The notes below the pieces were generated by a model. That model did no database searches. It had not been told where the DNA came from and was given only the letters and a program-made list of their open reading frames with translations. A DNA stretch of 28,707 nt. It comes from a virus. Taxonomy: Duplodnaviria; Heunggongvirae; Uroviricota; Caudoviricetes. A program made the position numbers and the translations under genes. This document shows, piece after piece, positions 10,577 to 28,581 of the stretch. Location of the stretch: the IMG/VR virus record IMGVR_UViG_2778261009_000004, one strand, 5' to 3'. The first letter of the stretch is position 1; each line of letters starts with the position of its first letter.

Positions 10577-10581
10577 CTCCT

Positions 10582-11569: not shown

Positions 11570-11845
11570 TTACTCAATAAAGATCATTGGCTTACCGTTA
11601 AAACGTTCATGCCGTGTAACCGTCCATTGTTGTCCGTCATAAACAACGCGATCCCCGCGCCGTGGGCGGTATCCCGAAGAAAACACCACCAGAGAGACCG
11701 CAGGTCCGGACAGAGCATTCAGCTCTGCCAGTGTTTCTCCCGGGATCACAGTCATATCGACATCATTAATCGAGGCTGTCTTTCCCATCTTTCTAACCGT
11801 GATAGCATCCATACGCGCTGCCAGCCGGGAAAAGGGATCAGACAT
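11570..11845 (-). CDS. Head-tail joining protein (FII-like)
   Basis: 91-aa ORF; N-terminal MSDPFSRLAARMDAI and ...RRGDRVVYDGQQWTV resemble lambda FII motifs (MADFDNLFDAAIARA ... RRGDTLTIGEENFWV, from memory). Position immediately upstream of Z. Confidence 0.6.
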   Translation of the reverse strand: MSDPFSRLAARMDAITVRKMGKTASINDVDMTVIPGETLAELNALSGPAVSLVVFSSGYRPRRGDRVVYDGQQWTVTRHERFNGKPMIFIE

Positions 11846-12161: not shown

Positions 12162-12204
12162 AACTGTCTCCGCACAGCCCCGTTCAGGGGCTGATTTCAG
12201 GTAC

Positions 12205-12225
12205 AAAAAAAGCCCTTACGGGCCA
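12205..12225 (-). terminator. Putative intrinsic terminator / attenuator downstream of the major capsid gene
   Basis: Minus strand GCCC-GTAA-GGGC (GNRA loop) followed by TTTTTTT, between the capsid stop (12248) and the next start (12161). Confidence 0.4.
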
Positions 12226-12247
12226 TCAGAGTTGTTGTCTGCGACGT

Positions 12248-14206
12248 TTACGCCGTACATTTCACCAGACCGCGGTGATCAACTGGCGCGACACCGGCGT
12301 CAATACGCACTTTCGTTGTCACGCCATCCACACTGAAGCCCTCCATCTGATCAATATATGGCGTATCCACACCGTTGAGATAAGCCACTTCAATCGTATC
12401 GGAGCCTTTTGACGCAGCCAGGTAGAAGGTGGTCTGGCTGTTATCATCAAGACGAGGCTCTGCAATAACGGTCGCAAAATCTTTCACCGGGTTAATAATA
12501 CCGGCGTTAATGTCAGCCCCCTTGACACTTGAGGAGCGAATGACCTGGTTAGCAACAGACTCCATCGCCGTCGGTACCAGTACGAACGCAGGACGAATAT
12601 TCAGATGACGCTCCCCCTCTTTCTGAACGCGCATCAACTGGCGGGCTTTATCCAGCGATGCCACGTCCATTGCCGCGCTCTCCAGTACGTTTGCATGTTT
12701 CGCTTTATCGAACAGACTTACATTATCTGTGGAGATTTTCGGGTTAGACGTCAGAATGGCATAAACCAGATCGGCAATAGTGGATTTCGCCGCACGGCCC
12801 AGTTTCATCGGGACATCGGTCAGCATATTCAGATCATCATTGATAATGGCCTGACGGGTGATACTGAACAGCTCGCCATAGGTCGCCAGTGCAATAGTGG
12901 CCTGTTTATCTCCGGTGGTGACGTATTTATATTCCGCCCCTTCACGCACCTGACGTAGAGCACTGAAGCCCCCCATACCCACACGATGGGCAATTTTAAA
13001 ATCAGACAACTGACCTTTCCGCGTCCACTGTTCATAGGTTTCAGGGGCATCTTCCCAGCCCTGCAGAATGGCTTTGTTCGCAACATCCAGCAGAATATTA
13101 CCGAAGTCAGACGTACTGTGTGTGAACGCCGCACCGACCATCTGCATCGGGTTATAACCGGAAACCCCAATACCCCGTTCAGTTAGTGACATACGGGCAT
13201 ATTCACGCAGGGTCATCCCGTTGTAGACATTATCACGTTCGGTTTTTTCAAATCCGGCACGCGCCATCAGCGCCTGGCGAATCCCGTCCCCCACAAAATT
13301 ACCGTTACCGGCATAAATATGAGCCGGGGTATTTTTATTGGATGGCGTGGACTCGCGCCCCATCTCGTTCAACAGCTTTTCACGGGCCTGCTCCAGCGAA
13401 CATTCAGGATCGGCAAGACACTGGGCCTGCAGCGTCTGATAACGCCCGCCAAACATGGCAAACAGATCATTAATACCGTTTACACGCGCTTTTTGCTCTG
13501 CCAGTACCTGCGCACGGATACTGTTTTCATCCACCACGGGTGCTGCTGCCTGCACTGGCGTCCGGGAGGCTGCAGGTTCATCATCCTGTACGCGTGGAGC
13601 ACTGTTGCGTGGCGGAGTAATCATGTTTCGAATGGATTCCGGCATCTTTTTAAATTCCTCTGTACGTTTTGACTGAATACATGCCATTGCCTTAACGGCT
13701 GGTGTCACCTGATCAGCAAATCCCTGTGCCAGACATTCGGCACCGGACATCCAGGTCTCATCCGCCAGCATGGCAGCAATTTCATCGGTGGTTTTCCCGG
13801 TTTTCTGTGCATAAGCGGGTAACAGAACCGCCTCAACTTTATCGAGCAGGTCGGCATAGGTGCGCATGTCCTCCGCATCACCGCCCGTAAAGCCAAATGG
13901 TTTATGAATCATCATGAAGGAGTTTTCCGGCATAATGACCGGGTTTCCCACCATCGCAATGACCGACGCCATTGACGCCGCCACACCGTCGACATAAACG
14001 GTAATGGACGCACCATGTGTTTTCAGTGCATTAAAAATGGCGATGCCTTCAAAGACATCGCCACCCGGTGAATTAATATGGAGATTAATGTGGGTGATAT
14101 CGCCCAGTGCATTCAGATCACTGATAAACTGCTTCGCTGTAACACCCCAGAAACCAATCTCGTCATAAATATAAATATCCGCGTCACTCTGGTGACCTGC
14201 CTGCAT
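12248..14206 (-). CDS. Prohead serine protease (ClpP/S49-like) fused in frame to a scaffold-like linker and an HK97-fold major capsid protein
   Basis: One uninterrupted ORF. N-terminal part DIYIYDEIGFWGV...INSPGGDVFEG...MMIHKP is ClpP-like; middle is a charged helical linker; C-terminal about 330 aa has HK97-type capsid motifs (...GYNPMQ...ITRQAIINDDLNML...). First ATG after the portal stop is 14206; the track ORF start 14467 overlaps portal. Confidence 0.8.
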   Translation of the reverse strand: MQAGHQSDADIYIYDEIGFWGVTAKQFISDLNALGDITHINLHINSPGGDVFEGIAIFNALKTHGASITVYVDGVAASMASVIAMVGNPVIMPENSFMMIHKPFGFTGGDAEDMRTYADLLDKVEAVLLPAYAQKTGKTTDEIAAMLADETWMSGAECLAQGFADQVTPAVKAMACIQSKRTEEFKKMPESIRNMITPPRNSAPRVQDDEPAASRTPVQAAAPVVDENSIRAQVLAEQKARVNGINDLFAMFGGRYQTLQAQCLADPECSLEQAREKLLNEMGRESTPSNKNTPAHIYAGNGNFVGDGIRQALMARAGFEKTERDNVYNGMTLREYARMSLTERGIGVSGYNPMQMVGAAFTHSTSDFGNILLDVANKAILQGWEDAPETYEQWTRKGQLSDFKIAHRVGMGGFSALRQVREGAEYKYVTTGDKQATIALATYGELFSITRQAIINDDLNMLTDVPMKLGRAAKSTIADLVYAILTSNPKISTDNVSLFDKAKHANVLESAAMDVASLDKARQLMRVQKEGERHLNIRPAFVLVPTAMESVANQVIRSSSVKGADINAGIINPVKDFATVIAEPRLDDNSQTTFYLAASKGSDTIEVAYLNGVDTPYIDQMEGFSVDGVTTKVRIDAGVAPVDHRGLVKCTA

Positions 14207-14219
14207 CCTGAACCAGGAA

Positions 14220-15728
14220 TTATTCTTCGGACTGGTCGTCGGTGTGCTGCGGCTCCTGTCGTTTCGTTGCGGCACTGCTGCCTCCTTTATCACTGGCCGG
14301 ATCGGTATCAAATACCAGATCCAGCTTGCGGTTTTCATCAATTTCGGCCTTGCGCCGACGTTTGACATCATCCGGATTACGACCACCTGCACGTACCCAG
14401 TCTGATTCTGTCGCCGCTCCACCACGAATCTGAATTTTCCAGGCCTCAGCCTCCTTAACAGGGTCAATCCACGGCATCACCGGTCCGGAATACACCGCGG
14501 TATACAGTGAAGAACGATCAAGATCGCGGGGTAGCCTGATAACACCGGATGCCACAGCCTGTTTCAGCCAGGCACGATACATCGGGCGGGTGACGGCACC
14601 AATAAACCAGTCCTGCAGGATCAGGTAGCCATCAGTGGATTCAACCAGCTCCTGACGCTGGGCGCTGTAAGTGCCGTTATAGTTGCGTGCCGTACTGGAA
14701 AAACTCAGACGACTGCCCGCCGCCACGGCACGCAACTGACCATTACGAAAAGTTTCAAGGTTAGGATTGGGACGATCCGACTTCACCATTCCGATTTCTT
14801 CGCCGGGTTTCAGATCGTCGTAAATAATGCCTGGCTGAATGGTAAGCTCGCGTTCATTCTCCTTGCTGCCATTACCATCCGGTTCATAGCTCTGCCCGTC
14901 GCCTTTCCGGATGTACATCCCCAGAGCAGCGGCGATCCTTGCTGCAGTCAGCTCAGAATCTTCATACTCTTTCAGGGCACTGAGGCGGATCAGCACACCG
15001 GACAACAAAGACGTCCCGCGCATCTGGTGCAGACGGCGAACAAATTTAAGATGCAGCATTCGCTCTGCATCCACTTCTTTGGTTTCCATCTGCCGCCCGG
15101 ATACGGGACGGCTTTTATACACCAGATATTTTTCGGGACGCCCCCAGTCATCAACAAACACGCCCTGATTCAGCCTGTTGCTCTCATCACTGGTCATGGG
15201 AATAAAGTCCGGCTCGAGCGCCTCCAGCCAGAAATGAACACCGGCAGAAGGCGTCAGGCTGTTTATGCGCCCGGAAACCATCTGGGCAAACACCTCACCA
15301 TCGCGCAGCCAGGTACGCAGCATCAGACGTTCCAGCATCGGACGGGTAAACTGCCCGGTGACTTCCGGACTGACAGACCATTCACTCCATCGGGTGCGTA
15401 TCTCCGCTGCCAGATCACGGGCAATGGCCCCATTGCGTAATACCGGATGTGGCTCGACAATAATCCCGTTTTTCCCCACCACCCGTTCTTCCAGCTTGTC
15501 AAATACACCAATAACCAGATCGTGGTTGTTATCAAGGTAACGGGCCTGCTCACGTAACGACACGGCCCCGTACTGGCTTAACTGGTCGGCAGTTCGGTTT
15601 TCCCGCCGGGCTTTGTGTGTCCGTGTCGTTTTTACGGCCTCATAAGCCTGGATCACCGCACGGGAACGCAGCCTTGCCGCTTTCCATCCTGGTGAAAAAA
15701 CGCCAATCACATCATCAAGAATTGCCAT
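14220..15728 (-). CDS. Portal protein (lambda B-like family)
   Basis: About 500 aa, located between the W-like gene and the protease-capsid gene; acidic C-terminus. ATG 15728 overlaps the W stop (TGATG); the track start 15800 is a longer extension. Confidence 0.85.
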   Translation of the reverse strand: MAILDDVIGVFSPGWKAARLRSRAVIQAYEAVKTTRTHKARRENRTADQLSQYGAVSLREQARYLDNNHDLVIGVFDKLEERVVGKNGIIVEPHPVLRNGAIARDLAAEIRTRWSEWSVSPEVTGQFTRPMLERLMLRTWLRDGEVFAQMVSGRINSLTPSAGVHFWLEALEPDFIPMTSDESNRLNQGVFVDDWGRPEKYLVYKSRPVSGRQMETKEVDAERMLHLKFVRRLHQMRGTSLLSGVLIRLSALKEYEDSELTAARIAAALGMYIRKGDGQSYEPDGNGSKENERELTIQPGIIYDDLKPGEEIGMVKSDRPNPNLETFRNGQLRAVAAGSRLSFSSTARNYNGTYSAQRQELVESTDGYLILQDWFIGAVTRPMYRAWLKQAVASGVIRLPRDLDRSSLYTAVYSGPVMPWIDPVKEAEAWKIQIRGGAATESDWVRAGGRNPDDVKRRRKAEIDENRKLDLVFDTDPASDKGGSSAATKRQEPQHTDDQSEE

Positions 15729-15940
15729 CAGAACCTCGCCAGCCGGTACCCGGGATGCCCCCGTCGTCGTGTAATCAGAGCCGCAAGGCGGCGCTCCCAC
15801 TCCTGCCGTCCCTGCCGGATCTCAGATAAGTTTTCCATGGTCATCTGCTGACCATTAAAGGTGACGGATTTTCCGTCCAGCACCGCCATTTCAGCTTCCG
15901 TATAACGCTGAATCATGGCTTCGATATCATTCTGGTTCAT
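15728..15940 (-). CDS. Head-to-tail joining protein W-like
   Basis: About 70 aa; C-terminal ...LITRRRGHPGYRLARF resembles the lambda W C-terminus (...RRRGPAGFYV, from memory). ATG at 15940 overlaps the terminase stop (ATGA). Order terminase-W-portal as in lambda. Confidence 0.7.
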   Translation of the reverse strand: MNQNDIEAMIQRYTEAEMAVLDGKSVTFNGQQMTMENLSEIRQGRQEWERRLAALITRRRGHPGYRLARF

Positions 15941-18039
15941 AACCATCCTCCGGAAGTCAGCCAGGGGTTAACATCGTCAGTTACTGTTTTCTTCCGTTTT
16001 TGTTTTTTAACAGGCGTGGATACCGGTTCCGGTGTGGGTGACGGTTCGGTACTGTCCGGGACACACTCCAGCCAGGTTTCCCGGCTCGCCCACTCCGGTG
16101 CATCCGGCCAGCGGATCTTTTCGTATCCATGCAGAATGACCAGAGCCTCGGCATACACCATCAGGTCAAAAGCTTCGTTGGCACCGCGACCCGGCTTACT
16201 CCATTTCCCGTCACTGCTCCGCTCTTCATACGTCAGTTCGTCGTAAAACCAGCTCCCCAGCCAGTCAGGGAAATGCACATAGCCGGGACCTGGCGAGTCA
16301 CGCCATAACGCGTTATTCACCCGGTCTTTCAGGGCATCCGTCTGAAGAAGCCAGAGCGGCACATGACCTGCGGCCTGCGCCCGGCGGCCCGTTCGTCCGG
16401 TGTTATCAGGGAATGTACGGCTGATCAGTTTTGCGCGCCGGATGCTGTCACCCTTAAACAGGTAAATACGTTTACCAAGGCCATCACGACGGCAACGACG
16501 CCAGAATTTATAGGCATTATCAGTGACCCCGTCTTCACCGCCGGAGTCCACCGCCATTGCCATCAGTCGCATTTGTTGAGAAGGATCGGAGGCCAGCGGC
16601 CAGCTTTTATGAAAAACATCCGTCAGCAGGACATCCCAGTCTTCCGGATAGCTGGCCGGATCAATTCGCTGGCTCTCCCCGTCGCTGTCACCGCGCAATG
16701 ACTGCGTGATGTTGTAACGATCAATAATCCAGCGTTCGCCACGGCTGCCATAGCCCGTTACCTGAACCACAAAACGGCGATGACGTCCCGCCTGCACATC
16801 CACTGTCGCCACAAGGAAATTAACGCCATCCGGCACACTGCGGGAAGGAACTGGCTCTGCCCGCTGCTCAAGCAATTCACTTTTTCGTTGCTCCATGCTG
16901 GCGCGGGGAAGATAAGGTAATCCCCAGTCGGTATTGATAACCGTCTTGAGTGTCTCTTCACTTCCGGTTGTCTCGTATTCCTGTTCTGCAGTAAGCAGTT
17001 TGTAAACGAGTTGCGAGAGTGTCTGATAAGCAGCTGCCGGACCCTCCATCCAGAATGACGCAATACGTGAACGCCGGGGATCACCATAACGACTGCCATC
17101 TGCATTGATGGATTCACCATCCCGTAACCAGACCCCACGTCCGTTCAGCTCGCGTTTTTGTTCAGGCAAAATCCGTCCTGAACAGGAAGGACACTGAATA
17201 TAAGCCGCCTCACTTGCCAGCACAGGATCGGCAATATCACGGAAACCAGCAACCACATCGCCGCAGGGCTGAAAATACTCACCACAGTGTGGACAGGGCC
17301 AGTACCAGCGACGGCGATCGCCACGGTTATAGAGCGACAGGATCCCCGTGGTTGGTGGAGCCTCATGCGGTGAAGTCCGTCGCCATTTCACATCCTTCAC
17401 ATCCCTGCCGGGGGAACTCTCCACCAGCGTCATACCACTGGACATAAATGTGGTGGTACGTTTTGAGGCAAGAGAGAAGGCATCCCCCTCACCATCAATA
17501 TCTTCCGGAAAACGGTCATAATCCGTCAGCGCCACGCATTTATAATCTGATGAAGACATGATATTGACTGACGGCCAGCCGATTTTCAGGTAGTTGCCAG
17601 CAAGGACTGTTCTGTCATAAACGTTGTTGTCATTTTTGTTCGGACTCAGGCGACTGACCACTTCCGGGCTGACGCGAAACGTTCTGGCGAGTCGTTTTTT
17701 GGAGTGTTCGCGGGCTTTTTCCTCCGTCATCTGAATGATCAGCATATCAGCAGGATCGCAAATCACGTTGTAAATCACCCAGCCGTCAATCAGGCCGATA
17801 GTCTTGCCGGTTCGTGCCGGGCCAACAAATATCACTGCGTCGTATTCACGCGAGGCCAGGCAGTTCATAGGCTCAATAACATACGGTGCCACCAGCGGAT
17901 CCCACGGGACTGAGTTCCCTGCCCCCATAGGCACCCGCATATACTGAGCAACGGCATCAGCAACCCGCATTCGTCTCGGTGCGCGAAGGATATAACCTGA
18001 ATCGGTTCGTGCTGCCTTTGCGGTTTCCTGATTCAGCAT
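15937..18039 (-). CDS. Terminase large subunit (GpA-like)
   Basis: 700 aa; Walker A VIFVGPARTGKT; Cys cluster CPHCGEYFQPCGD...CPSCSG; start overlaps the small-subunit stop (TAATG). Confidence 0.9.
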   Translation of the reverse strand: MLNQETAKAARTDSGYILRAPRRMRVADAVAQYMRVPMGAGNSVPWDPLVAPYVIEPMNCLASREYDAVIFVGPARTGKTIGLIDGWVIYNVICDPADMLIIQMTEEKAREHSKKRLARTFRVSPEVVSRLSPNKNDNNVYDRTVLAGNYLKIGWPSVNIMSSSDYKCVALTDYDRFPEDIDGEGDAFSLASKRTTTFMSSGMTLVESSPGRDVKDVKWRRTSPHEAPPTTGILSLYNRGDRRRWYWPCPHCGEYFQPCGDVVAGFRDIADPVLASEAAYIQCPSCSGRILPEQKRELNGRGVWLRDGESINADGSRYGDPRRSRIASFWMEGPAAAYQTLSQLVYKLLTAEQEYETTGSEETLKTVINTDWGLPYLPRASMEQRKSELLEQRAEPVPSRSVPDGVNFLVATVDVQAGRHRRFVVQVTGYGSRGERWIIDRYNITQSLRGDSDGESQRIDPASYPEDWDVLLTDVFHKSWPLASDPSQQMRLMAMAVDSGGEDGVTDNAYKFWRRCRRDGLGKRIYLFKGDSIRRAKLISRTFPDNTGRTGRRAQAAGHVPLWLLQTDALKDRVNNALWRDSPGPGYVHFPDWLGSWFYDELTYEERSSDGKWSKPGRGANEAFDLMVYAEALVILHGYEKIRWPDAPEWASRETWLECVPDSTEPSPTPEPVSTPVKKQKRKKTVTDDVNPWLTSGGWL

Positions 18040-18533
18040 TACTCCTCCTGCTGTAATTCCTCCTCATCATCCGCACCTGCTTCAGTCACCCGCAGGGCTA
18101 TCTGATCGCGCAGATCATCAATAATGGACTGAACACGGCTCACAGCGGCAGGCTGCAGACCGCAGTCACGTTCAAGAATATCCGGTAATGTCTCCAGCAC
18201 CTGCACGACCGCTTTTGCCCAGATGGCAAACTCCCGTCTGACATCACTGGCCGGAATGAGTTGTGCCGTTTCCTGTTCGAACTTAAGACGCTCACGTTCA
18301 GACTGATACCAGGCTTTGCGCTCATGCGCGTCCATTTCGCCTTCTGCAACCGGCGGTGGTAATGCCAGAAATGCCGACACAATATCAACCACCCGATAAA
18401 GCTTGAGGTTGCTTTCATGCCCCCCTGCAACGGGTAGATTTTGCAGCCTTGCCGCAGCAGTCTGGCGATGTACACCTGACAATGCCGCCAGTTGACTGAT
18501 ATTCAGCGTCAGATTTTTTAACTCTCGATCCAT
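18039..18533 (-). CDS. Terminase small subunit (Nu1-like, N-terminal HTH)
   Basis: 164 aa; N-terminal LNISQLAALSGVHRQTAAARL helix-turn-helix and acidic C-terminus; immediately downstream of the cos-like site. Confidence 0.8.
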   Translation of the reverse strand: MDRELKNLTLNISQLAALSGVHRQTAAARLQNLPVAGGHESNLKLYRVVDIVSAFLALPPPVAEGEMDAHERKAWYQSERERLKFEQETAQLIPASDVRREFAIWAKAVVQVLETLPDILERDCGLQPAAVSRVQSIIDDLRDQIALRVTEAGADDEEELQQEE

Positions 18534-18702
18534 ACCCGCTCCAGAATGTTTTAAACATGCATCTTGCGAACAACTTTAGGCAAACGGTGTTAGTGATGAA
18601 CAAAAAACAATCAGAATCGACACCATAAAAATAAAACCACTGTAATATCAATCAATTACAGTAGTGGTGATGACGAATAAAATTTCAAAAACTAGCCTTT
18701 TT

Positions 18703-18722
18703 CCGCGACGCTCCCGCCCCGT
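18703..18722. other. Putative cos site (cosN core with predicted 12-nt cohesive end GGGCGGGAGCGT, minus-strand orientation, 18708..18719)
   Basis: Minus strand reads ACG GGGCGGGAGCGT CGCGG. Lambda reads ACG GGGCGGCGACCT CGCGGG (from memory): flanks identical, core differs in 5 positions. Located about 170 nt upstream of the Nu1-like gene, with AT-rich (cosB-like) DNA in between. Confidence 0.5.
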
Positions 18723-19085
18723 GGTAGGGACCCCCACTGGGAGGACCCGACAGCCTGACAACCGTTACGAGCATCTGAAACAGAGCTTTACATAATGGCA
18801 TGGGGATAATTCAGAAGGACATCACAGCATGCCCACACAAATTAGTGTGAGTGTCCTGTTTCTTACTACGCGCAGGACTGACGAGCATGAGGGGAAAATA
18901 CGCGAACCGAAATGCCTTATCTTCAGAAATGCAGCCGGCATCCGAACTGGACGATATTGTAAATTCACCTAAATACGAGGCATTACTGTAGTTGAATTGC
19001 AGTACTGTATTAGCCTTACAGTGACAGAATACGATATTGACTCTGTCACTTGTGAAATGGTCAGAATGGTTAGCAGTTATGGTGA

Positions 19086-19292
19086 TCAGTCAACCACCAG
19101 GGAATAATCCTTCGTATTCTTATCGTGCTTTACTAACGCGGCCTCAATTGCCCTGAATGCTTCCAGAGATACTTGATGTTCTATACATGCAATTACAACA
19201 TCCGGGTAACCCATCGAAATGGTGCTATTAAGCATAGTTTTTACACGAACCTGCTCCTGGGAGGGGGCATCAGTGTATTGATCTTTATGCAT
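19086..19292 (-). CDS. Hypothetical small protein (moron between cos and lysis genes)
   Basis: 68-aa ORF with no family I can recognise; soluble composition. Confidence 0.4.
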
Positions 19293-19587
19293 TTTGTCGC
19301 TCCATTCGTTTGCTCTTCACTTGCGGCTAAAAATATAACGTCAAATCACTCAGCATGAAAGAGTGAAAGTTTCAGCGCGTTTCCCTTACATAATCTGTCG
19401 TTTGTATTCTCTTCAGGCATACCGGAAAGACTAGGTATTGTCACACAACCAATACCATCGACAATCGAGATTTATATCTATTCGGTAATGTTTAAATATA
19501 ACAAAACCCCGTAAAAACGAGGTTTATGGGTAATTTGTATTGTTGAATAGCATCTGATGAGAAATTGATGCTAATACTATAAACATG

Positions 19588-20232: not shown

Positions 20233-20435
20233 ATTTTCACTTTCTTAAATCTAACGACAGATGGCTAACATTTAAGTATTGTGAAATATTATCAAATGTA
20301 ATCATCATTGATTTACAAAAGATACATTTTGCCCCGAAAGGATTTCTGTCAGAAACATCAAAAGATGATGTTCTATACTGAGAACCATGGCAACACGGGC
20401 ATCTAAAGTGAATATGGTTTGTAATATTTTCTACC

Positions 20436-20651
20436 TCAAAGTGCCACTACATGAACAGCTGCAGGGCCTTTAGGTCCGTTCTCAATACCAAATTCGACTT
20501 CCTGATTCTCAGTTAACGTTTTGAAATCGTTGCTCTGAATAGCTGAGAAATGCACAAACACATCTTTGCTACCATCTTTCGGCGTGATGAAACCAAAACC
20601 TTTTTCAGGGTTAAACCATTTCACTAAACCAGTCATTTTGTTAGACATCAT
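20436..20651 (-). CDS. cspI: Cold-shock protein CspI
   Basis: (M)[70 protein letters not shown], matching E. coli CspI as remembered. Confidence 0.9.
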
Positions 20652-21011
20652 TATTACCTTTTGAAGAAGTTAGCCCTTGGGCAGAATGGTCCGAAAAAAA
20701 ATATCAGAGAGAAAAACCAACAAGGAAATCTCAAGAGGTACAAATAATAAAATTATAACAATGACTGCTTCAGATAATTTTGTAACAAACCAGAACACCA
20801 TTAACGCATGATTAACCAACCATAGCAAGGATTACTTTTGTAAAGAAAAACACACGAATGAAACAATAGCTTTATTTATTAATAAAACGTGTCATTTTGT
20901 CTAATGACCTTTTATCTTACCCTTAAGATTTCAAGGATTTTGACTCATGGAAGAGTCCTTTTTATTTAAATTTCACATTCAGCGCTAAAAATAATCCGAT
21001 TTAATATTAAT

Positions 21012-23037: not shown

Positions 23038-23319
23038 TGAGATTGTGGTGCTTTTTGTGGGAGTCATCCACTTACGCACTTTGTTTTGCGATGCCAGCAG
23101 TTAGCTTCTGCTGTGAAACTATTCATGCAGCAAACCTGCACTTCACCACAATGGTTAGCATACTTTTCCTGATTAAGATTTTGCCAAATATGCTGGCCAT
23201 TGTTTCATGTATTGGACCTCCTTACTTTTTATTAAAGAGATCCAATATTCAATACTCTGTCCGTATCTCTACTCAGGCATCAGCCTTCTTCGTTATCGTA
23301 TACAGACGAGCGATGAATT

Positions 23320-23535
23320 TTAATCAGTAATGATGACATTTGCTGCTGCAGGACCTTTAGCACCACTCTCTATAGAGAAGGTAACCTTTTGACCTTCAAA
23401 TAAGGTTCGATAATTATCATTCTGAATCGCAGAAAAATGCACAAACACATCTTTACTACCATCAACAGGAGAAATAAAGCCGAAACCTTTATCAGCGTTA
23501 AACCATTTTACTAAACCAGTCATTTTATTTGACAT
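23320..23535 (-). CDS. cspB: Cold-shock protein CspB
   Basis: [71 protein letters not shown], matching E. coli CspB as remembered. Confidence 0.9.
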
Positions 23536-23845
23536 TCTACATTCCTTAACTTGAGCCTTTCGGCATAAATGGTTTGCATAACAGAAACGACTTCGTACTT
23601 AATTGGAGAGACTCAAAGAAGGAATAAGTGAATAACACCTGAAATGAGAACTGCTTTAGTAAACTACTTCGTATATCGTCTGTTCTTCAAACCGACGCAG
23701 TCATTAACTCATAGTTGAACATATGAAGCAATGTTTATTTTAGACATCCAGCCACCTTCAACCCTATCAAAAAAGTAGTTTTCTCCAGGAACGTGTGTAT
23801 GGTGCACCAGGTTATCAGTATTAAGGAGTTTTTCTGTCCCCTAAA

Positions 23846-24050
23846 ATGACAGGAATTGTCAAAAACTTTGACTACAAAAGCAGCAAAGGTCTTATATTCC
23901 CATCCGATGGCGTATCGATGCCCAGCTTCACGTTTCAGCTCTCAATCTTCGAGATGCAGAAGAAATTACCACAGGATTACGCGTGGAATTTTGCCGGATA
24001 AATGGTTCGCGTGGACCTTCAACTGCCAATGTTTATCCCGGGATGAGATT
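23846..24050 (+). pseudogene. cspF: cspF/cspH-like cold-shock gene disrupted by a frameshift
   Basis: Frame 1 from ATG 23846 encodes the N-terminal cold-shock-domain motif [22 protein letters not shown] then junk until a stop at 23999. The rest of the domain ([42 protein letters not shown]) lies in another frame from about 23910. The frames switch at GATGGC|GTATCG, about 23909-23912. Confidence 0.55.
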
Positions 24051-24082
24051 CAATATCTCTATTGCCCCATTTAAAGCACAAA

Positions 24083-24102
24083 AACCCGCTTATAAGCGGG
24101 TT
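24083..24102. terminator. Bidirectional intrinsic terminator (candidate tR' for the late operon leader; also 3' of the cspF-like gene)
   Basis: AACCCGC-TTATAA-GCGGGTT followed by TTTTCTACTTTTTT on plus; on minus it is followed by a T-rich run. About 110 nt downstream of the Q stop. Confidence 0.5.
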
Positions 24103-24150
24103 TTCTACTTTTTTCTAAACGTCGGATACACAAAGCCCATCGTTGAGAAA

Positions 24151-24179
24151 ATCTTATCCATGTTTTTTGAAAAATGCAA
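24151..24179 (-). promoter_or_regulatory. Candidate late promoter (PR'-like) immediately downstream of Q
   Basis: Minus strand: -35 TTGCAT (24179..24174), 17-bp spacer, -10 TAAGAT (24156..24151), followed about 50 nt later by the terminator hairpin. Pattern match only. Confidence 0.3.
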
Positions 24180-24210
24180 ACATCATGTCGCCATCTTCAG
24201 CAAAAATCAT

Positions 24211-24963
24211 TTATCTCGTCACCTTCCTCAATTGCGCTTCCGCGTATGCTTCTTCCTGCCAGCACTTTGTTACCAGTTTACCAATGACGTCCGCATACCC
24301 CTTATACCACTGATAATCGGTCAGGTCTGGTACCAGCTTCTGGACATGACGTCGTGCCAGCGTGGTCGGTAAACGACTAAACCGGTTTCCATTACAACGC
24401 CCACAAATCTTATATACCGGTACGCCATGAAACCGGGTTCTTTTTTCATCCAGAACAATCCCTTTACCCTTACACCCTCTGCACGCTGTGCTGACTTCGC
24501 CCTTACCATGGCAATGCTGACATAGTTCCTTTACCCATTCTTCCTTGATTACAGATTCCCCGCGTCTGTAGTGTTTCACCACTTCGCGCAATACATTATA
24601 AAATCCCGTACCTGAACAATGCTCACAGCGAGCCTTACTTGCCGCAGACCTGGAGTAATCAGCAAAGGCAAAATTCACGAGGTAAGGAATAATCTGTAAC
24701 CGGATTTCTTCACTCAATTTGTTCAATGTCGGGTTATCCAGTGCCATCGCGTAATTTAGCAGGCCTTCAATCGCAAACTGAGGGTCCTGAACACCAACTT
24801 TTGCCAGAAATAAGGCCAACCCAAGTGGTGCTTTCGACTGCACCATCCCCTGCGCTGCCATTACATCCGTAATTGTTAAACAACCGGTGCCTGTCGCTGG
24901 AGCGTCATCGCTCAATTTTGGAGATTTTGGGGAGTAATATTTTGGTAAGGCTTCAAGGTTCAT
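24211..24963 (-). CDS. Late-gene antiterminator Q (Qin quuQ-type, four CxxC pairs)
   Basis: 250 aa; CEHCSGTG...CQHCHGKG...CRGCKGKG...CGRCNG zinc-binding motifs; located immediately upstream of the late region. Confidence 0.8.
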
Positions 24964-24976
24964 GCTCGTTCTCCAC

Positions 24977-26065
24977 TTACGCCAGTACGCCAGTTGCCAG
25001 CGCGCGATCGATAAAACGAAATATCAGCTCCAGTTGGGAGCCATACTTCTCTTCAAATGCCACTGTATCCGTATGCAGCTCGTTGTGATGCTTTCTGCAC
25101 AAAGGCAACACAAAGAGATCATGTGCTTTTGTTCCCATTCCGCCCTGCCCGTGACCAATCAGATGATGCGGATCGTCGGCTGGCATACCGCAGCAAGCAC
25201 ACGGCTGTGTCTTAACCCAACGAGTGTATTTCTCCTTAACCCAGCGGCGACGTTTAGGCAGCTTCATGAAAGATTCCGGAGACTCTGGATCAACGGTGAT
25301 GCTTACCACCGTCTTTTCCTGTGGTGGTTTTTGTTGCTGTTGGGCGTAAGGCAACGGTGCAAGATTTTTTGTGCGTTGTTTCAATATGCTGGTGGCGGTC
25401 TGCTCTCCCGGTACGATGTCGCTTTCGCGGTACACCGAGCAGATTTTTTCCGCTGGTAATCCCAGCGAACGACGCGATACAGCCTCAGGTAGTGCATCTA
25501 CCACCTGATTGCAGACCGCCCACCAGGATAATTCAGCCAAAGATAATTCCCGCTCCTGCGTACCGCTTATTGCGTGACGGATGACGTCAATCACCCATGC
25601 TGTCAGATTTTGTTGAGCAAGCAGCTCCAGTGATTCCGATGTCTGGTCACGCAGATGGTTGTCGCAGTGCCAGCACAACACCATTGCGCCGGTACCATAA
25701 CGGTGAATGACTGTTTCAGTGTGATGGTAATCGCCATTAGGCCACTGGCAGGATGTAACATGACGTAATAGCCAGTCAGACAATGCGCCAACGCCGCCAG
25801 CAGCACGAATCACCCGTTCGTTACTAAAAAACGGCAGCAATGTTTTGTCTTCCGCCAGCGGCTGGCGAACGGCAGGAACGACTCCGGATGGCAGATTACG
25901 CATGCTTTTTGGTTCCGGTTCCACCAGCACTCGAGGATTATGAAATATCTGTATGGATTCACGGCCCGGCTTAAGGACCACCAGCCCAAGCTCAGGCACC
26001 AGAACAGGTCTAAGTAATACCCGCACGTTACCTCCAGATCCGTTGCTGGAAAGTGCGGGACGCAC
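24977..26065 (-). CDS. DUF968 protein (YdfU-like) with C-terminal HNH-like Cys/His motif
   Basis: 362-aa ORF; C-terminal ...CACCGMPADDPHHLIGHGQGGMGTKAHDLFVLPLCRKHHNELH resembles an HNH/His-Me finger. True start may be an internal Met (for example about 25903). Confidence 0.6.
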   Translation of the reverse strand: MRPALSSNGSGGNVRVLLRPVLVPELGLVVLKPGRESIQIFHNPRVLVEPEPKSMRNLPSGVVPAVRQPLAEDKTLLPFFSNERVIRAAGGVGALSDWLLRHVTSCQWPNGDYHHTETVIHRYGTGAMVLCWHCDNHLRDQTSESLELLAQQNLTAWVIDVIRHAISGTQERELSLAELSWWAVCNQVVDALPEAVSRRSLGLPAEKICSVYRESDIVPGEQTATSILKQRTKNLAPLPYAQQQQKPPQEKTVVSITVDPESPESFMKLPKRRRWVKEKYTRWVKTQPCACCGMPADDPHHLIGHGQGGMGTKAHDLFVLPLCRKHHNELHTDTVAFEEKYGSQLELIFRFIDRALATGVLA

Positions 26066-26306
26066 GTGGTGGGCGTTCGGAATAAGGCAGCCTGACAGAG
26101 ATTATCCAGTGCCGATAGTCGAGACTGAGAGCTTTCTTAACCTCGAACCCGCGCCTGCGGTAAGAATGAATCAGCCATTCGGCCTGTTCTGCAGTGCATG
26201 GAGGGTGCTGGAACCATTCAGACTTGAATGCGTGAGAATACCGCCCGTGCGTGCAGGCAAGAACGGGCGAATTATCAGAATTGTAATATTTTACGTTGCG
26301 TGCCAT
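26028..26306 (-). CDS. Hypothetical protein
   Basis: 92-aa ORF upstream of, and overlapping, the DUF968 ORF; no family recognised. Confidence 0.35.
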   Translation of the reverse strand: MARNVKYYNSDNSPVLACTHGRYSHAFKSEWFQHPPCTAEQAEWLIHSYRRRGFEVKKALSLDYRHWIISVRLPYSERPPRASRTFQQRIWR

Positions 26307-26372
26307 CGGTTTTCTCCGGTGGCACGGTGTTACTCAGCGGGAGTTCAGCCCCGTGCAAGATTGTAGATGAGT

Positions 26373-26624
26373 TTATTCTTCTGCAAAAGCTGAAAAGCCT
26401 GCTTTTATTCCGATCTCTTTCAGTGCCTGTAATGAAGTGACAAACTCACCTTCGCGCAAGATAAATCCGTCCGTGACCCGAGCATCCACAAAATTAATTA
26501 ACGCAGCTCCATTCTTTCGCAAACACATAATGCGGTAATGACTAACAAGATTTCCATTTTCAACGCACACAGCATAGAGGCCATCTTCACAAAAAATTTT
26601 ACGCAGTTCTTCGATGTTCATCAT
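26373..26624 (-). CDS. rem: Rem-like protein (Qin prophage)
   Basis: 83-aa ORF MMNIEELRKIFCEDGLYAVCVENG... in the position (between hokD and DUF968) and of the length of E. coli rem, from memory. Confidence 0.6.
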   Translation of the reverse strand: MMNIEELRKIFCEDGLYAVCVENGNLVSHYRIMCLRKNGAALINFVDARVTDGFILREGEFVTSLQALKEIGIKAGFSAFAEE

Positions 26625-26754
26625 CAGAATCCTTCCGGATAATTAGCTCTCCCCTTTAAGGGACCATCCCTCTTCTCCCTGCGCGCTACTTAAGTATTTT
26701 TGATTCTATTCCGGCACCGTCCAGAACTTCAAACGCGTTGAAAATAAAAACAAA

Positions 26755-26772
26755 AACCCGCCGAAGCGGGTT
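26755..26772 (-). terminator. Intrinsic terminator of the relB-relE-hokD operon
   Basis: Minus strand AACCCGC-TTCG-GCGGGTT (UUCG loop) followed by TTTTGTTTTTATTTT, about 70 nt after the hokD stop. Confidence 0.6.
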
Positions 26773-26840
26773 AAGTGCGGGTGCGTTGAGGATGCCTGCC
26801 ACATCAGAGGTGGCGAGGGATTTCTCCCTCGCCGGGTCTC

Positions 26841-26996
26841 TTACTCCTCAGGTTCGTAAGCTGTGAAGACAGCGACCTCCGTCTGGCCGGTTCGGATTCG
26901 TACCTCGCAAAGGTCTTTCCTCGTTACCAGTGCCGTCACTATGACGGTTAAACAGATGACGATCAGGGCGATTAACATCGCCTTTTGCTGCTTCAT
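26841..26996 (-). CDS. hokD: Hok-family membrane toxin HokD (RelF)
   Basis: Own translation: MKQQKAMLIALIVICLTVIVTALVTRKDLCEVRIRTGQTEVAVFTAYEPEE (51 aa). Not in the ORF track because it is under 60 aa. Confidence 0.9.
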   Translation of the reverse strand: MKQQKAMLIALIVICLTVIVTALVTRKDLCEVRIRTGQTEVAVFTAYEPEE

Positions 26997-27066
26997 AGCC
27001 TGCTTCTCTGTCAACGCAAAGCAGAAGTGTCACCTTCGGTGCGAAACAGAGATGTCATGCTTTGGT

Positions 27067-27354
27067 TCAGAGAATGCGTTTGACCGCCTCGCTATATACT
27101 TCCGAGCGTTCTCTTTTCCCAACAGAAATCACGAAAACGACAACTTTCTCGTCTATAACCTGGTATACAAGGCGATAGCCTGAAGACCGGAGCTTAATCT
27201 TGTAACAATCAGGCATACCACGGAGCTTGTTTGCTTCAATCCGGGGTGACTCAAGTACTTCAACCAGCTTCTTTTTCAACTGTTCACGTACCGTCGAGCC
27301 CAGCTTTCGCCATTCCTTTAGTGCCCGCTCGTCAAAATCCAGAAAATACGCCAT
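27067..27354 (-). CDS. relE: mRNA interferase toxin RelE
   Basis: 95 aa, MAYFLDFDERALKEWRKLGSTVREQLKKKLVEVLESPRIEANKLRGMPDCYKIKLRSSGYRLVYQV..., matching E. coli RelE as remembered. Confidence 0.93.
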   Translation of the reverse strand: MAYFLDFDERALKEWRKLGSTVREQLKKKLVEVLESPRIEANKLRGMPDCYKIKLRSSGYRLVYQVIDEKVVVFVISVGKRERSEVYSEAVKRIL

Positions 27355-27593
27355 CAGAGTTCATCCAGCGTCACACGTACTGGCTTAGGATTACGAAGCC
27401 GTTCTTTCACTATCTCCACAAGTTCAGCATCTTCATCACTCAGGAGTGTCTGTTTGAACGGCAAGCGTTCATTGTCAGCGATATACTCGAGCATGAGACG
27501 AAGCGCTTCAGAAGGAGTTACACCCATTTTTTCAAGCGCGGCGTAAGAACGCGCTTTAAGTTCATCGTCAATACGCAGGTTAATGCTACCCAT
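27354..27593 (-). CDS. relB: Antitoxin RelB
   Basis: 79 aa, MGSINLRIDDELKARSYAALEKMGVTPSEALRLMLEYIADNERLPFKQTLL...; stop overlaps the relE start. Confidence 0.93.
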   Translation of the reverse strand: MGSINLRIDDELKARSYAALEKMGVTPSEALRLMLEYIADNERLPFKQTLLSDEDAELVEIVKERLRNPKPVRVTLDEL

Positions 27594-27604
27594 GTCTTAC
27601 ACCT

Positions 27605-27630
27605 CTTGTAATTACAAATGTCATTACAAG
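27605..27630 (-). promoter_or_regulatory. relBE operator (relO-like) overlapping the relB promoter/leader
   Basis: Perfect 12-bp palindrome TTGTAATTACAA (27606-27617) plus a second half-site ATTACAAG (27623-27630), 12-37 nt upstream of the relB ATG (SD AGAGGTG). Confidence 0.6.
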
Positions 27631-27923
27631 TATCGCACTACAACATGCTTAGGGCAAGTCACGAAGGAAGTCAGAAAGTAGTCGTAAGAACGGTGATCAC
27701 TGTCCGCTTTGTGCCAGGAGCAGCCATTGCTAAGTCCATCCTGTATTGTGCAGGTCAGCTCATTTTTAAAGAGTCCGGCCATCATCTTACTGGTACAGAC
27801 ACCATATACTTTGTGACGGTCAGGCTACATATGCACAACTCAACTTATTCATCTATTTTTTGCTTTAGCATGTCAGTGTTGCTTTCTCGTCGGCGGGTGA
27901 GCGGTGACCTGACCTGTCGATAA
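27618..27923 (+). CDS. Hypothetical protein (possibly YdfV-like)
   Basis: 101-aa ORF between relB and flxA; composition not convincingly protein-like. Kept only because Qin carries a gene of about this length here (from memory). Confidence 0.25.
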   Translation: MSLQVSHYNMLRASHEGSQKVVVRTVITVRFVPGAAIAKSILYCAGQLIFKESGHHLTGTDTIYFVTVRLHMHNSTYSSIFCFSMSVLLSRRRVSGDLTCR

Positions 27924-28075
27924 AGGAACGTAGCACGTTTTATGCAACACCCGCATGCGGCAGAAAATTATTGCCGAACGTTTACCCCTGTCAACAAGCT
28001 TTACTTTCTGAGGCGCGCCAGCCCGCTAGGAAAACAATCTGAACATCAAACAATTAATGACACAAGAAATACGAT

Positions 28076-28102
28076 TAAAGATTTTTTTGTGCATGCCGAT
28101 AG
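28076..28102 (+). promoter_or_regulatory. Sigma-28 (FliA) promoter of flxA
   Basis: TAAA (28076-28079), 15-nt spacer, GCCGATAG (28095-28102), against consensus TAAA-N15-GCCGATAA; about 25 nt upstream of the flxA SD AAGGAGA. Confidence 0.65.
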
Positions 28103-28125
28103 TGCTTTTTTAAAAGGAGAAATCT

Positions 28126-28458
28126 ATGTCTGTCACAATTCAGGGAAATACCTCAACCGTTATTTCAAACAACTCCGCCCCGGAAGGAACATCAGAAATA
28201 GCCAAAATCACAAGACAAATTCAGGTGCTGACTGAAAAGCTTGGGAAAATCTCATCGGAAGAGGGGATGACGACACAGCAGAAAAAAGAAATGGCTGCAT
28301 TGGTACAGAAGCAAATTGAAAGCCTCAGGGCTCAACTGGAGCAGTTGTTAAGGCAGCAGGCAGAGAAAAAGAATGAAGACGCGACAGTTCAGCCTGATAA
28401 AAAAGAAGAGAAAAAAGACGATACAAATACCGCTGGCACCATTGATATTTACGTCTAA
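28126..28458 (+). CDS. flxA: FlxA (FliA-regulated protein)
   Basis: 110 aa, MSVTIQGNTSTVISNNSAPEGTSEIAKITRQIQVLTEKLGK..., coiled-coil, Q/K/E-rich, matching E. coli FlxA as remembered. Confidence 0.85.
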   Translation: MSVTIQGNTSTVISNNSAPEGTSEIAKITRQIQVLTEKLGKISSEEGMTTQQKKEMAALVQKQIESLRAQLEQLLRQQAEKKNEDATVQPDKKEEKKDDTNTAGTIDIYV

Positions 28459-28472
28459 GTGACAGCCGTATT

Positions 28473-28495
28473 GTGGCCCTCATCGGGCCACTTTT
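28473..28495 (+). terminator. Intrinsic terminator of flxA
   Basis: GTGGCCC-TCATC-GGGCCAC followed by TTTT, 15 nt after the flxA stop. Confidence 0.55.
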
Positions 28496-28581
28496 CGCCA
28501 TCAGCCTTTTCTTTAAAGACATATTATCTTTGTATCATTTCTGATAGTTAACATTACAAGATATAAGTAATGGACGCACTC

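What the first reader, a model, noticed from the sequence alone, without database searches (positions are those of the whole stretch)
26755..27630. relB-relE-hokD toxin-antitoxin operon carried inside the prophage late-regulatory region, with operator palindrome and hok fold-back elements
Three co-directional genes encode antitoxin RelB, toxin RelE and Hok-family toxin HokD (directly translated, 51 aa). Upstream of relB is a perfect 12-bp palindrome TTGTAATTACAA plus a second half-site overlapping the SD region, the expected RelB/RelE autoregulatory operator. Between relE and hokD a short upstream ORF (ATG 27058) and the inverted repeat TCTCTGT...ACAGAGA resemble the mok/fold-back control of hok mRNAs. 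A strong UUCG-loop terminator closes the operon. A prophage carrying two unrelated toxins beside Q could stabilise the prophage or give abortive-infection-type defence.
Basis: partly seen in the sequence, partly recalled or inferred. Interest (0 to 1): 0.45.

Follow-up and report, generated by a model that had tools for sequence, protein, structure and literature searches.

The report
Known relBE-hokD toxin operon of Qin

Summary
The region (minus strand, 27657..26745) is the classical relBEF operon of the E. coli Qin cryptic prophage. It is 99% identical to K-12 and present in about 1,170-1,200 of 5,426 complete E. coli genomes. RelB, RelE and HokD, the relO operator (footprinted and mutagenised in published work) and the UUCG terminator are all confirmed.

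The mok/fold-back claim is not supported:
- Comparison with relBE-less prophages that carry the same hok gene shows a sharp junction 12 nt upstream of the hokD ATG.
- Everything 5' of the junction (hok promoter, tac, mok, sok) is replaced by relBE and its 58-nt tail.
- The 15-codon uORF and one arm of the inverted repeat lie in that tail.
- The uORF start is lost in diverged relBE alleles, and the hairpin is no more stable than shuffled sequence.
- The only hok fold-back relic is an orphan fbi element in the 3' UTR.

This window also carries a near-private 1-nt deletion in the hokD Shine-Dalgarno (1 of 1,169 genomes).

Side observation: the same relBE cassette is fused at the same nucleotide to at least eight different hok genes, none with an adjacent sok, in plasmids and other genera.

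Verdict: already known, low interest.

The parts
27629..27657 (-). relB promoter: -35 TTGCCC (27657..27652), 17-nt spacer, extended -10 TGcGATACT (-10 hexamer 27634..27629)
   Evidence: Custom hexamer scan. The position agrees with relO spanning -10 to +17 of the mapped transcription start (PMC2812701). The built-in scan missed it because it scores 8/12.
27606..27629 (-). relO operator: left pseudo-palindromic half-site TTGTAATGACAT (27629..27618) plus right perfect palindrome TTGTAATTACAA (27617..27606); four [A/T]TGT[A/C]A hexads bound by two RelB dimers
   Evidence: Sequence. Identical to the operator that was mutagenised and hydroxyl-radical footprinted in PMC2812701.
27354..27593 (-). relB, 79-aa ribbon-helix-helix antitoxin and repressor; SD GAGGTG at 27605..27600
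   Evidence: Pfam RelB 1e-32; NCBIfam equivalog 133 bits; PDB 4FXE_A full length.
27067..27354 (-). relE, 95-aa ribosome-dependent mRNA interferase; start overlaps the relB stop (ATGA); K52, K54, R61, R81 and Y87 are present
   Evidence: Pfam ParE_toxin 2e-13; TIGR02385; PDB 4FXE_D and 4V7J/K full length. Residues read from the translation.
27009..27066 (-). 58-nt 3' tail of the relBE cassette, forming most of the relE-hokD spacer; contains the 15-codon uORF (27058..27011) and the 5' arm of the leader hairpin (27052..27046)
   Evidence: Travels with relBE at 99-100% identity into more than 20 unrelated right-hand contexts. No homology to hok leaders (10/58 and 17/58). uORF ATG lost in 4 diverged alleles.
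27008..27009 (-). recombination junction between the relBE cassette and the hok locus; in this window also the site of a 1-nt G deletion that turns the hokD SD from AGGAG into AGAG
   Evidence: Megablast classes break at 27008; alignments A2 and A4. MG1655 and 73 other loci read GACAGGAGAAG. Only 1 of 1,169 genomes matches the window allele.
26841..26996 (-). hokD (relF), 51-aa Hok-family membrane toxin; Tyr47 codon TAC within UACG (26858..26855) in a predicted loop, the TadA A-to-I editing site class
   Evidence: HOK_GEF 1.2e-23; annotated hokD in more than 1,100 genomes; ORF intact in 71/72 fused loci; loop; editing of hokD mRNA reported in PMC5630033.
26812..26833 (-). 3' UTR hairpin GGCGAGGGA-GAAA-UCCCUCGCC, shared with intact hok loci
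   Evidence: 3' UTR fold z = -3.3.
26776..26791 (-). orphan fbi (fold-back inhibition) element CCUCAACGCACCCGCA, complementary to the tac sequence UGCGGGUGCUUGAGG at the 5' end of intact hok mRNAs, which is absent from this transcript
   Evidence: Alignments. The tac sequence is seen in L006 and L007. No GGGTGC-type complement exists anywhere in 27625..26750.
26745..26772 (-). intrinsic terminator AACCCGC-UUCG-GCGGGUU plus U tract; the hok locus's own terminator, now ending the relBEF transcript
   Evidence: identical in intact hok loci L006 and L007.
27009..27727 (-). extent of the roughly 0.72-kb relBE cassette (promoter, operator, relB, relE, tail) as defined by the loss of homology in other genomic contexts; left edge ragged (27711-27727), right edge exact
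   Evidence: Imperfect terminal inverted repeat with 20/24 columns matching; 1 of 2,000 shuffles scores as well.

Best explanation
The locus is the relBEF (relB-relE-hokD) operon of a Qin-type lambdoid prophage.

Shown:
- One promoter upstream of relB drives a single transcript through relB, relE and hokD to the UUCG terminator.
- RelB dimers, helped by RelE as co-repressor, bind the four hexads of relO, which overlaps the -10 box and transcription start, and shut the promoter off. Excess RelE or Lon-mediated loss of RelB opens it (conditional cooperativity).
- hokD is the 3' part of a formerly complete hok/sok locus. A roughly 0.72-kb relBE cassette replaced everything 5' of the hok Shine-Dalgarno, so the hok promoter, tac/ucb elements, mok frame, sok gene and Sok target are gone. 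An fbi element without a partner remains in the 3' UTR.

Inferred:
- HokD is no longer controlled by an antisense RNA. Its control now comes from RelB/RelE-regulated transcription and from the weakness or occlusion of its own ribosome-binding site.
- In this window, a near-private 1-nt deletion degrades that site from AGGAG to AGAG and strengthens a hairpin over it. HokD output here is therefore predicted to be lower than in K-12.
For: Identity and context:
- (99.1% identical to MG1655 Qin; annotated relB/relE/hokD in more than 1,100 genomes).
- (family and solved-structure matches).

Operator: plus PMC2812701.

Co-transcription:
- Northern blots with relB, relE and relF probes, and loss of the transcript on promoter deletion, in PMC3598666.
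- No promoter or terminator found in the spacer.

Loss of hok control elements:
- Rfam sok model negative here at E<=10 but 84-118 bits on hokC, hokB, hokE, L006, L007 and L115.
- Junction at 27008.
- In-frame mok present in L006 and L007, absent here.
- Orphan fbi.
- The idea that relBE integrated into an ancestral 70-codon hokD is already published (Ramisetty & Santhosh 2016, as cited in PMC6379469, and PMC5120126).

Shine-Dalgarno deletion.
Against: - Whether HokD is translated from the native relBEF mRNA was not established by anything I could read.
- PMC5630033 relays the older view that hokD is inactive in K-12, while also showing that it is transcribed and edited.
- The 1-nt deletion could be an assembly error rather than a real allele.
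- The hairpin over the Shine-Dalgarno is not statistically distinguishable from chance folding, so its regulatory role is only a prediction.
Confidence: 0.9

Rival explanations
1. One reading: hokD keeps hok-type translational control. The short uORF starting at 27058 would act like mok (translational coupling), and the TCTCTGT...ACAGAGA repeat would act like the fold-back elements, possibly with a sok-like antisense RNA.
For: - The uORF starts 8 nt after the relE stop and ends 14 nt before the hokD ATG, so a termination-reinitiation relay is geometrically possible.
- The predicted hairpin covers the Shine-Dalgarno remnant.
- The ATG is retained in all the near-identical relBE copies.
Against: - The uORF and the 5' arm of the repeat lie in relBE-cassette DNA, not in hok-derived DNA.
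- The uORF has no Shine-Dalgarno and is out of frame with hokD, whereas real mok genes are in-frame N-terminal extensions.
- Its ATG is AGG in 4 diverged alleles, and the other substitutions are mostly non-synonymous.
- Hairpin z-scores are -0.9 and +0.4, and the repeat is perfect only in the rare deletion allele.
- There is no Rfam sok signal and no credible antisense promoter. The best candidate scores 6/12 plus a TG, while the real sok -35 lies just beyond the junction and was lost.
Confidence: 0.06
2. hokD is a silent passenger: a decaying remnant of a disrupted hok/sok locus that is transcribed only because relBE lacks its own terminator, and that contributes nothing to the cell or the prophage.
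For: - It has lost its promoter, mok, sok and tac, and keeps only a useless fbi.
- Older work, relayed in PMC5630033, classed hokD as inactive.
- This window carries a Shine-Dalgarno-weakening deletion.
- One viral contig has a 100-nt deletion into hokD (L073), and one locus has a frameshift.
Against: - The ORF is intact in 71/72 fused loci, although the sequences are too similar for a selection test.
- The HokD coding sequence is toxic when expressed (bioRxiv 10.1101/2025.08.07.668861).
- The relF part is the most abundant fragment of the processed mRNA (PMC3598666).
- The common allele has a good AGGAG Shine-Dalgarno 9 nt from the ATG.
- At least seven other hok genes sit in the same position behind relBE, which suggests the arrangement is retained rather than accidental.
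Confidence: 0.3
3. The three-gene module acts as a prophage-addiction or abortive-infection defence unit. Two unrelated toxins would be released together when RelB is lost or host transcription is shut off.
For: - Both toxin families have members with such roles: hokW-sokW of prophage Sp5 promotes lysis on induction (PMC8621323), and some RelE/ParE-superfamily toxins are described as defence toxins (PMC11980606, listed).
- The module sits in mobile elements, both prophages and conjugative plasmids.
Against: - No PADLOC defence model matches any of the three proteins.
- No experiment on relBE-hokD and phage was found in the papers read.
- Qin in K-12 is a cryptic, non-excising remnant.
Confidence: 0.15

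Closest known systems
relBEF (relB-relE-relF/hokD) operon of E. coli K-12 Qin prophage (b1564-b1562)
   Same: Same genes in the same order, with the same operator, promoter, spacer and terminator. The window is 99.1% identical in DNA to K-12 over 24036-28581, and the RelB, RelE and HokD proteins are identical to the common alleles.
   Different: One G is missing in the hokD Shine-Dalgarno. The surrounding prophage is more complete than K-12 Qin: the window's first 19.4 kb, which holds large ORFs and which the closest relative annotates as structural genes, does not match the K-12 Qin stretch that was fetched.
[quoted passage not shown]
   Same: Same Hok toxin family. The CDS, 3' UTR hairpin, fbi element and terminator are identical to L006 (367/369).
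   Different: It lacks the hok promoter, tac, ucb, mok, dcb, and the sok gene and its target. Transcription comes from a protein-regulated type II TA promoter instead.
relBE-hok fusions on IncHI2, IncI and other plasmids and in other Enterobacterales (L009, L011, L016, L018, L021, L024, L029, L037)
   Same: The relBE cassette and 58-nt tail are 99-100% identical in most of them (95-96% in L016 and L037). The junction is at the same nucleotide, the hok ATG follows 3-13 nt later, and there is no adjacent sok.
   Different: The hok partners are different: R1-Hok-like, HokA-like, HokC-like and HokE-like proteins, with different downstream DNA.

Membership tests
RelBE type II toxin-antitoxin system (E. 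coli relBE) | Antitoxin gene precedes the toxin gene with overlapping stop and start, and the antitoxin is a RelB ribbon-helix-helix protein | tested here: met
   relB 27593..27354 and relE 27354..27067 share an ATGA overlap. Pfam RelB 1e-32 and NCBIfam equivalog NF008412 at 133 bits against a cut-off of 96. Full-length match to PDB 4FXE_A.
RelBE type II toxin-antitoxin system (E. coli relBE) | Toxin is a RelE-fold ribosome-dependent mRNase with the catalytic residues K52, K54, R61, R81 and Y87 | tested here: met
   TIGR02385 at 54.7 bits against a cut-off of 27.9. Full-length match to RelE in PDB 4FXE, 4V7J and 4V7K. The residues were read from the translation; which residues are catalytic is from my knowledge of the RelE structures.
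RelBE type II toxin-antitoxin system (E. coli relBE) | Autoregulatory operator relO with four [A/T]TGT[A/C]A hexads in two abutting 12-bp half-sites overlapping the promoter | tested here: met
   TTGTAATGACAT plus TTGTAATTACAA at 27629..27606, immediately 3' of the -10 box. Identical to the published relO (PMC2812701). Binding itself is not testable here.
[quoted passage not shown] | Hok-family toxin ORF of about 50 aa with an N-terminal transmembrane helix and a conserved Cys | tested here: met
   HOK_GEF at 82.9 bits against a cut-off of 22. The protein is identical to HokD of K-12.
[quoted passage not shown] | cis-encoded Sok antisense RNA gene and its target in the hok mRNA leader | tested here: not met
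   Rfam RF01794 finds nothing at E<=10 in 26600-27750 but scores 84-118 bits on six genuine loci. The sok -35 position lies just beyond the junction and was replaced.
[quoted passage not shown] | mok reading frame whose translation is coupled to hok | tested here: not met
   The in-frame upstream extension is open only from 27029 and has no ATG or GTG. L006 and L007 have 19-codon in-frame mok extensions. The out-of-frame uORF is not hok-derived and is not conserved.
[quoted passage not shown] | tac (5') and fbi (3') long-range fold-back pairing | tested here: not met
   fbi is present at 26791..26776, but no complementary tac sequence exists anywhere in the transcript. tac is present in L006 and L007.
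Anti-phage defence systems (PADLOC catalogue) | Match to a curated defence-system protein model | tested here: not met
   No PADLOC hit for RelB, RelE or HokD at E<=0.001.

The most novel reading that the evidence does not exclude
The relBE-hok tricistron may be a recurrent, selected hybrid module rather than a one-off accident in Qin. In this module, a type II TA promoter and operator replace Sok RNA as the controller of a type I Hok toxin.

A discrete relBE cassette of about 0.72 kb, with a nucleotide-exact right end, has become joined 3-13 nt upstream of the start codon of at least nine different hok genes (hokD and eight others), none with an adjacent sok, across prophages, IncHI2, IncI and other plasmids, and several genera.

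The joining could have happened through short-homology recombination at the conserved SD-ATG block, or through an unrecognised site-specific mechanism acting at the cassette end. Neither was tested.
Probability: 0.3. Interest if true: 0.45.

Novelty: already known. Interest (0 to 1): 0.1.

Why it matters
The operon itself adds nothing new. relBE is a founding model of type II toxin-antitoxin biology, and relF/hokD has been known since the 1980s.

The useful result is the correction. hokD should not be read as a normally regulated hok/sok system. It is a Hok toxin stripped of its RNA antitoxin and put under RelB/RelE transcriptional control.

This matters when interpreting relBE deletion strains, which usually remove or disturb hokD expression, and when annotating 'type I TA systems' by the toxin ORF alone.

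If the recurrence of the same fusion with many hok genes holds up, it would be an example of one toxin-antitoxin type repeatedly taking over the control of another.

Tried and rejected
1. Rfam at gathering and at E<=10 on the locus gave only sub-threshold hairpin look-alikes on the 3' UTR (isrK 25.7 bits against a cut-off of 50, and rsmX). I treated these as chance.
2. Antisense sok-like promoter: a relaxed hexamer scan with real sok promoters as controls found nothing credible in the leader. The 8/12 site at 26972 lies inside the hok CDS, is shared with intact loci, and does not correspond to the annotated sok starts.
3. Integron attC reading of the 58-nt tail: rejected. The conserved sequence runs through the whole GTTGACA rather than ending at G|TT, and the core sites fit the consensus poorly (inspection).
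4. Classical transposon reading of the cassette: the ends carry an imperfect inverted repeat (1 of 2,000 shuffles). However, no target-site duplications were seen, and no matching distant left end was found in loci that share a 3-kb left flank. This remains unresolved.
5. Selection test on hokD: the sequences are too similar, with 67 of 72 proteins identical.
6. A first fuzzy-regex scan timed out and two scripts failed on file handling; all were rerun.
7. The primary papers by Bech 1985, Gerdes 1986, Pedersen & Gerdes 1999 and Ramisetty & Santhosh 2016 are not held. Their content is cited only as relayed by papers I could read.
8. The one genome sharing the deletion allele (Z1323CEC0015) has a different prophage backbone, so it is not the window's source.
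Full report
**What is there**

All features lie on the minus strand.
- The ORF list and translations give relB (27593..27354, 79 aa), relE (27354..27067, 95 aa, start overlapping the relB stop) and hokD (26996..26841, 51 aa).
- Pfam assigns RelB (1e-32), ParE/RelE toxin (2e-13) and HOK_GEF (1.2e-23).
- NCBIfam gives the RelB equivalog and the RelE/StbE subfamily.
- RelB and RelE match the crystallised E. coli proteins over their full length (PDB 4FXE, 4V7J/K).
- A megablast of 26600-27950 finds the complete rem-hokD-relE-relB-ydfV block in 1,158 of 5,426 complete E. coli genomes, annotated with exactly these names.
- The window is 99.1% identical to K-12 MG1655 over 24036-28581, inside the feature annotated 'cryptic prophage Qin'.
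- The neighbourhood is Q antiterminator (24211..24963), ydfU, rem, hokD, relE, relB, and then the divergent ydfV and flxA.

The operon therefore lies about 2 kb from Q, in the region between the replication genes and Q of a lambdoid prophage. This is the classical relBEF operon.

**Operator, promoter and terminator**

- On the coding strand the sequence reads TTGCCC-17 nt-TGcGATACT, then TTGTAATGACAT TTGTAATTACAA, then GAGGTG-6 nt-ATG.
- The two 12-bp units at 27629..27606 are exactly the left pseudo-palindromic and right perfect-palindromic half-sites of relO.
- Published scanning mutagenesis and hydroxyl-radical footprinting showed four [A/T]TGT[A/C]A hexads bound by two RelB dimers, with RelE as co-repressor, and an operator spanning -10 to +17 of the transcription start (PMC2812701).
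The perfect palindrome abuts the Shine-Dalgarno, and the second half-site lies on the promoter side.
- The terminator AACCCGC-UUCG-GCGGGUU plus U tract at 26772..26745 is confirmed.
- Northern blots with relB, relE and relF probes showed one full-length relBEF transcript that disappears when the relB promoter is deleted. After toxin-induced cleavage, the relF part accumulates as the most abundant fragment (PMC3598666).

**The hokD leader is not a hok leader**

- Rfam's sok/hok-leader model (RF01794, 157 nt, ending at the hok start) finds nothing in 26600-27750 even at E<=10.
- As positive controls, the same model scores 118, 110 and 84 bits on K-12 hokC, hokB and hokE.
- A search with the hokD segment alone shows about 2,800 genomes carrying at least 80% of it. 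In many of these the match starts only at window position 27008 (confirmed from the other side).
- Two such loci are L006, a lambdoid prophage with hok-rem-ydfU-Q, and L007, from O157:H7. Both have the same hok CDS and 3' UTR plus a complete leader scoring 113 and 104 bits.
- Against L006, identity is 367/369 downstream of 27008 and 10/58 upstream (alignment).
- L006 and L007 have the 5' tac sequence GCUGCGGGUGCUUGAGGC and an in-frame 19-codon mok extension. In the window, the in-frame extension is open only from 27029 and has no ATG or GTG.
- In intact loci the sok -35 box lies 14-19 nt upstream of the hok ATG, just beyond the junction, so it was removed. A relaxed promoter scan finds nothing credible antisense to the leader.
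CCUCAACGCACCCGCA at 26791..26776 in the 3' UTR is complementary to tac. No partner (GGGUGC or longer) occurs anywhere in the relBEF transcript.

**The uORF and the inverted repeat**

- The minus-strand ATG at 27058 opens MTSLFRTEGDTSALR*. It ends 14 nt before the hokD ATG and is in a different frame.
- It has no Shine-Dalgarno.
- It lies wholly in the 58 nt that travel with relBE (see the side observation below).
- Its ATG is AGG in four diverged relBE alleles (L010, L028, L033, L034), and the remaining substitutions are mostly non-synonymous.
- The hairpin built on UCUCUGU/ACAGAGA is predicted, but its energy is ordinary. The z-score is -0.71 to -0.92 for the window and +0.37 for the common allele.
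- The repeat is perfect only because this window lacks one G.

**A near-private deletion in the hokD Shine-Dalgarno**

- MG1655 and 73 other loci fetched from the viral and genome collections read GACAGGAGAAGCAGGCUAUG. One further hokD-type locus reads GGGGAAG. The window reads GACAGAGAAG.
- Among 1,169 E. coli genomes carrying the junction, only one (NZ_CP148423, a chicken isolate) matches the window exactly. That genome has a different prophage backbone.
- The change turns AGGAG into AGAG and deepens the predicted leader hairpin from -22.0 to -25.8 kcal/mol.
- I infer reduced HokD translation in this strain. An assembly error cannot be excluded.

**What is known about hokD itself**

- The coding sequence is toxic when overexpressed (bioRxiv 10.1101/2025.08.07.668861).
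- hokD mRNA is made in K-12 and is edited by TadA at the Tyr codon in a UACG motif (PMC5630033).
- The same motif (26858..26855) sits in a predicted loop here.
- The same paper relays the older classification of hokD as inactive.
- The proposal that relBE, acquired from plasmids, integrated into an ancestral 70-codon hokD (that is, mokD) is already published. It is attributed to Ramisetty & Santhosh 2016 in PMC6379469 and PMC5120126. The latter also states that relBEF is co-transcribed because the transferred module lacks a terminator.
- My junction analysis therefore refines a published idea rather than adding a new one.

**Side observation that I could not fully explain**

- relBE with its 58-nt tail occurs at 99% identity or more on over 700 plasmids of Escherichia, Klebsiella, Enterobacter and Salmonella.
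- It also occurs in 27 representative genomes (Kluyvera, Citrobacter, Pantoea, Leclercia and others) and in 74 viral contigs.
- The tail ends at exactly ...GCGUUGACA in more than 20 different right-hand contexts.
- In about half of the distinct contexts, the next thing is a hok gene whose ATG follows within 3-13 nt.
  - The partners are HokD, several R1-Hok-like 52-54-aa proteins (L009, L018, L021, L024), a HokA-like protein (L011), a HokC-like protein (L016), a HokE-like protein (L029) and a diverged HokD-like protein (L037).
  - None has an adjacent sok.
- Three hok lineages exist both with a native leader and fused to relBE, with the break at the same nucleotide 5' of AGGAGAAG. The pairs are L006/K-12, L115/L021 and L116/L009.
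  - These three share a conserved block of about 20 nt from the Shine-Dalgarno to the ATG, so short-homology recombination could explain them.
  - It does not explain the partners that lack this block, nor the non-hok contexts.
- Eleven loci share 1.4-3 kb of identical left flank but have seven different right flanks.
- In Citrobacter portucalensis, an inverted sok/hok leader (94.7 bits) begins exactly at the cassette end.
- One viral contig has a 100-nt deletion into hokD that starts exactly at the cassette end.
- The cassette ends carry an imperfect inverted repeat (1 of 2,000 shuffles), but I saw no target duplications and found no matching distant end.
- I did not find this multi-hok recurrence in the papers I could read, including the recent Hok survey. 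The primary 2016 paper is not held.

**Verdict**

- The identification of the genes, operator and terminator is correct and is textbook knowledge.
- The mok/fold-back reading is refuted by comparative evidence.
- The defence or stabilisation idea is untested, and no PADLOC model matches.
- Novelty: already known. Interest is low.
- The only mildly novel thread is the recurrent, nucleotide-exact fusion of one relBE cassette to many hok genes without an adjacent sok.

Noticed in passing
window 27008-27009 (minus strand, hokD Shine-Dalgarno): A single G is missing relative to K-12 and almost all other relBE-hokD loci (AGGAG becomes AGAG). Only 1 of 1,169 E. coli genomes with this junction shares the allele. 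It strengthens the predicted leader hairpin by about 3.8 kcal/mol. It could be an attenuating mutation or an assembly error.
   Followed up: yes
window ~27727..27009; loci L008-L038, L067, L073, L094, L115, L116: relBE with its 58-nt tail behaves as a discrete cassette of about 0.72 kb with a nucleotide-exact right end. It is fused 3-13 nt upstream of the ATG of at least nine different hok genes (hokD and eight others), none with an adjacent sok, in prophages, plasmids and several genera. Three hok lineages occur both with a native leader and fused to relBE, with the break at the same nucleotide. The mechanism is unresolved.
   Followed up: partly
L025 (Citrobacter portucalensis NZ_MVFY01000016) 2565-2730: A complete sok/hok-leader match (94.7 bits) begins exactly at the relBE cassette end, but in inverted orientation and without a hok CDS. 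It looks like the other half of a hok locus that was split at the same spot.
   Followed up: partly
window 27618-27923 (+), annotated ydfV: The ydfV ORF starts inside the relO operator on the opposite strand and runs across the left boundary of the relBE cassette (~27711-27727). It is therefore a chimera of cassette and prophage DNA. It has no Pfam hit, so its status as a real gene is doubtful.
   Followed up: partly
window 26855-26858 (minus strand, hokD codon Tyr47): The TAC codon lies within a UACG motif in a predicted 9-nt hairpin loop, the signature of TadA A-to-I editing sites that recode Tyr to Cys. Such editing has been reported for hokD mRNA in K-12 (PMC5630033).
   Followed up: partly
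window 20390-20806 and 23304-23696 (minus strand): Two full-length matches to the cspA thermoregulator 5' leader (110 and 159 bits). They belong to the prophage-borne cold-shock genes (cspI/cspB type).
   Followed up: no
window 1-19450: This stretch holds large minus-strand ORFs (up to 1,132 aa) and does not match the K-12 Qin stretch that was fetched. The closest annotated relative (E. coli EC-107) carries phage tail, capsid, portal and terminase genes on this side of the operon. The window's prophage therefore appears more complete than the K-12 remnant.
   Followed up: no
window 26751-26832 (minus strand, hokD 3' UTR): A sub-threshold Rfam resemblance to the Hfq-binding sRNA isrK (25.7 bits against a cut-off of 50) covers the two 3' UTR hairpins. 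It is probably only a shared hairpin-plus-terminator shape.
   Followed up: no
window 26703-26732 (minus strand): A sigma-70-like site, TTGAAG-18-TAGAAT (9/12), lies just downstream of the relBEF terminator. It is a candidate promoter for rem.
   Followed up: no
L014 and L015, about 3.0 kb left of the relBE junction, and the cassette left end: A similar motif (GTCCGC-N12-GCGGACA(G/T)TG at the cassette end and in L014, degenerate in L015) marks both the left end of the relBE cassette and the left end of a 3-kb unit (cytochrome b, cation-diffusion facilitator, relBE) shared by IncHI2 plasmids and a Kluyvera contig. Its meaning is unknown.
   Followed up: no
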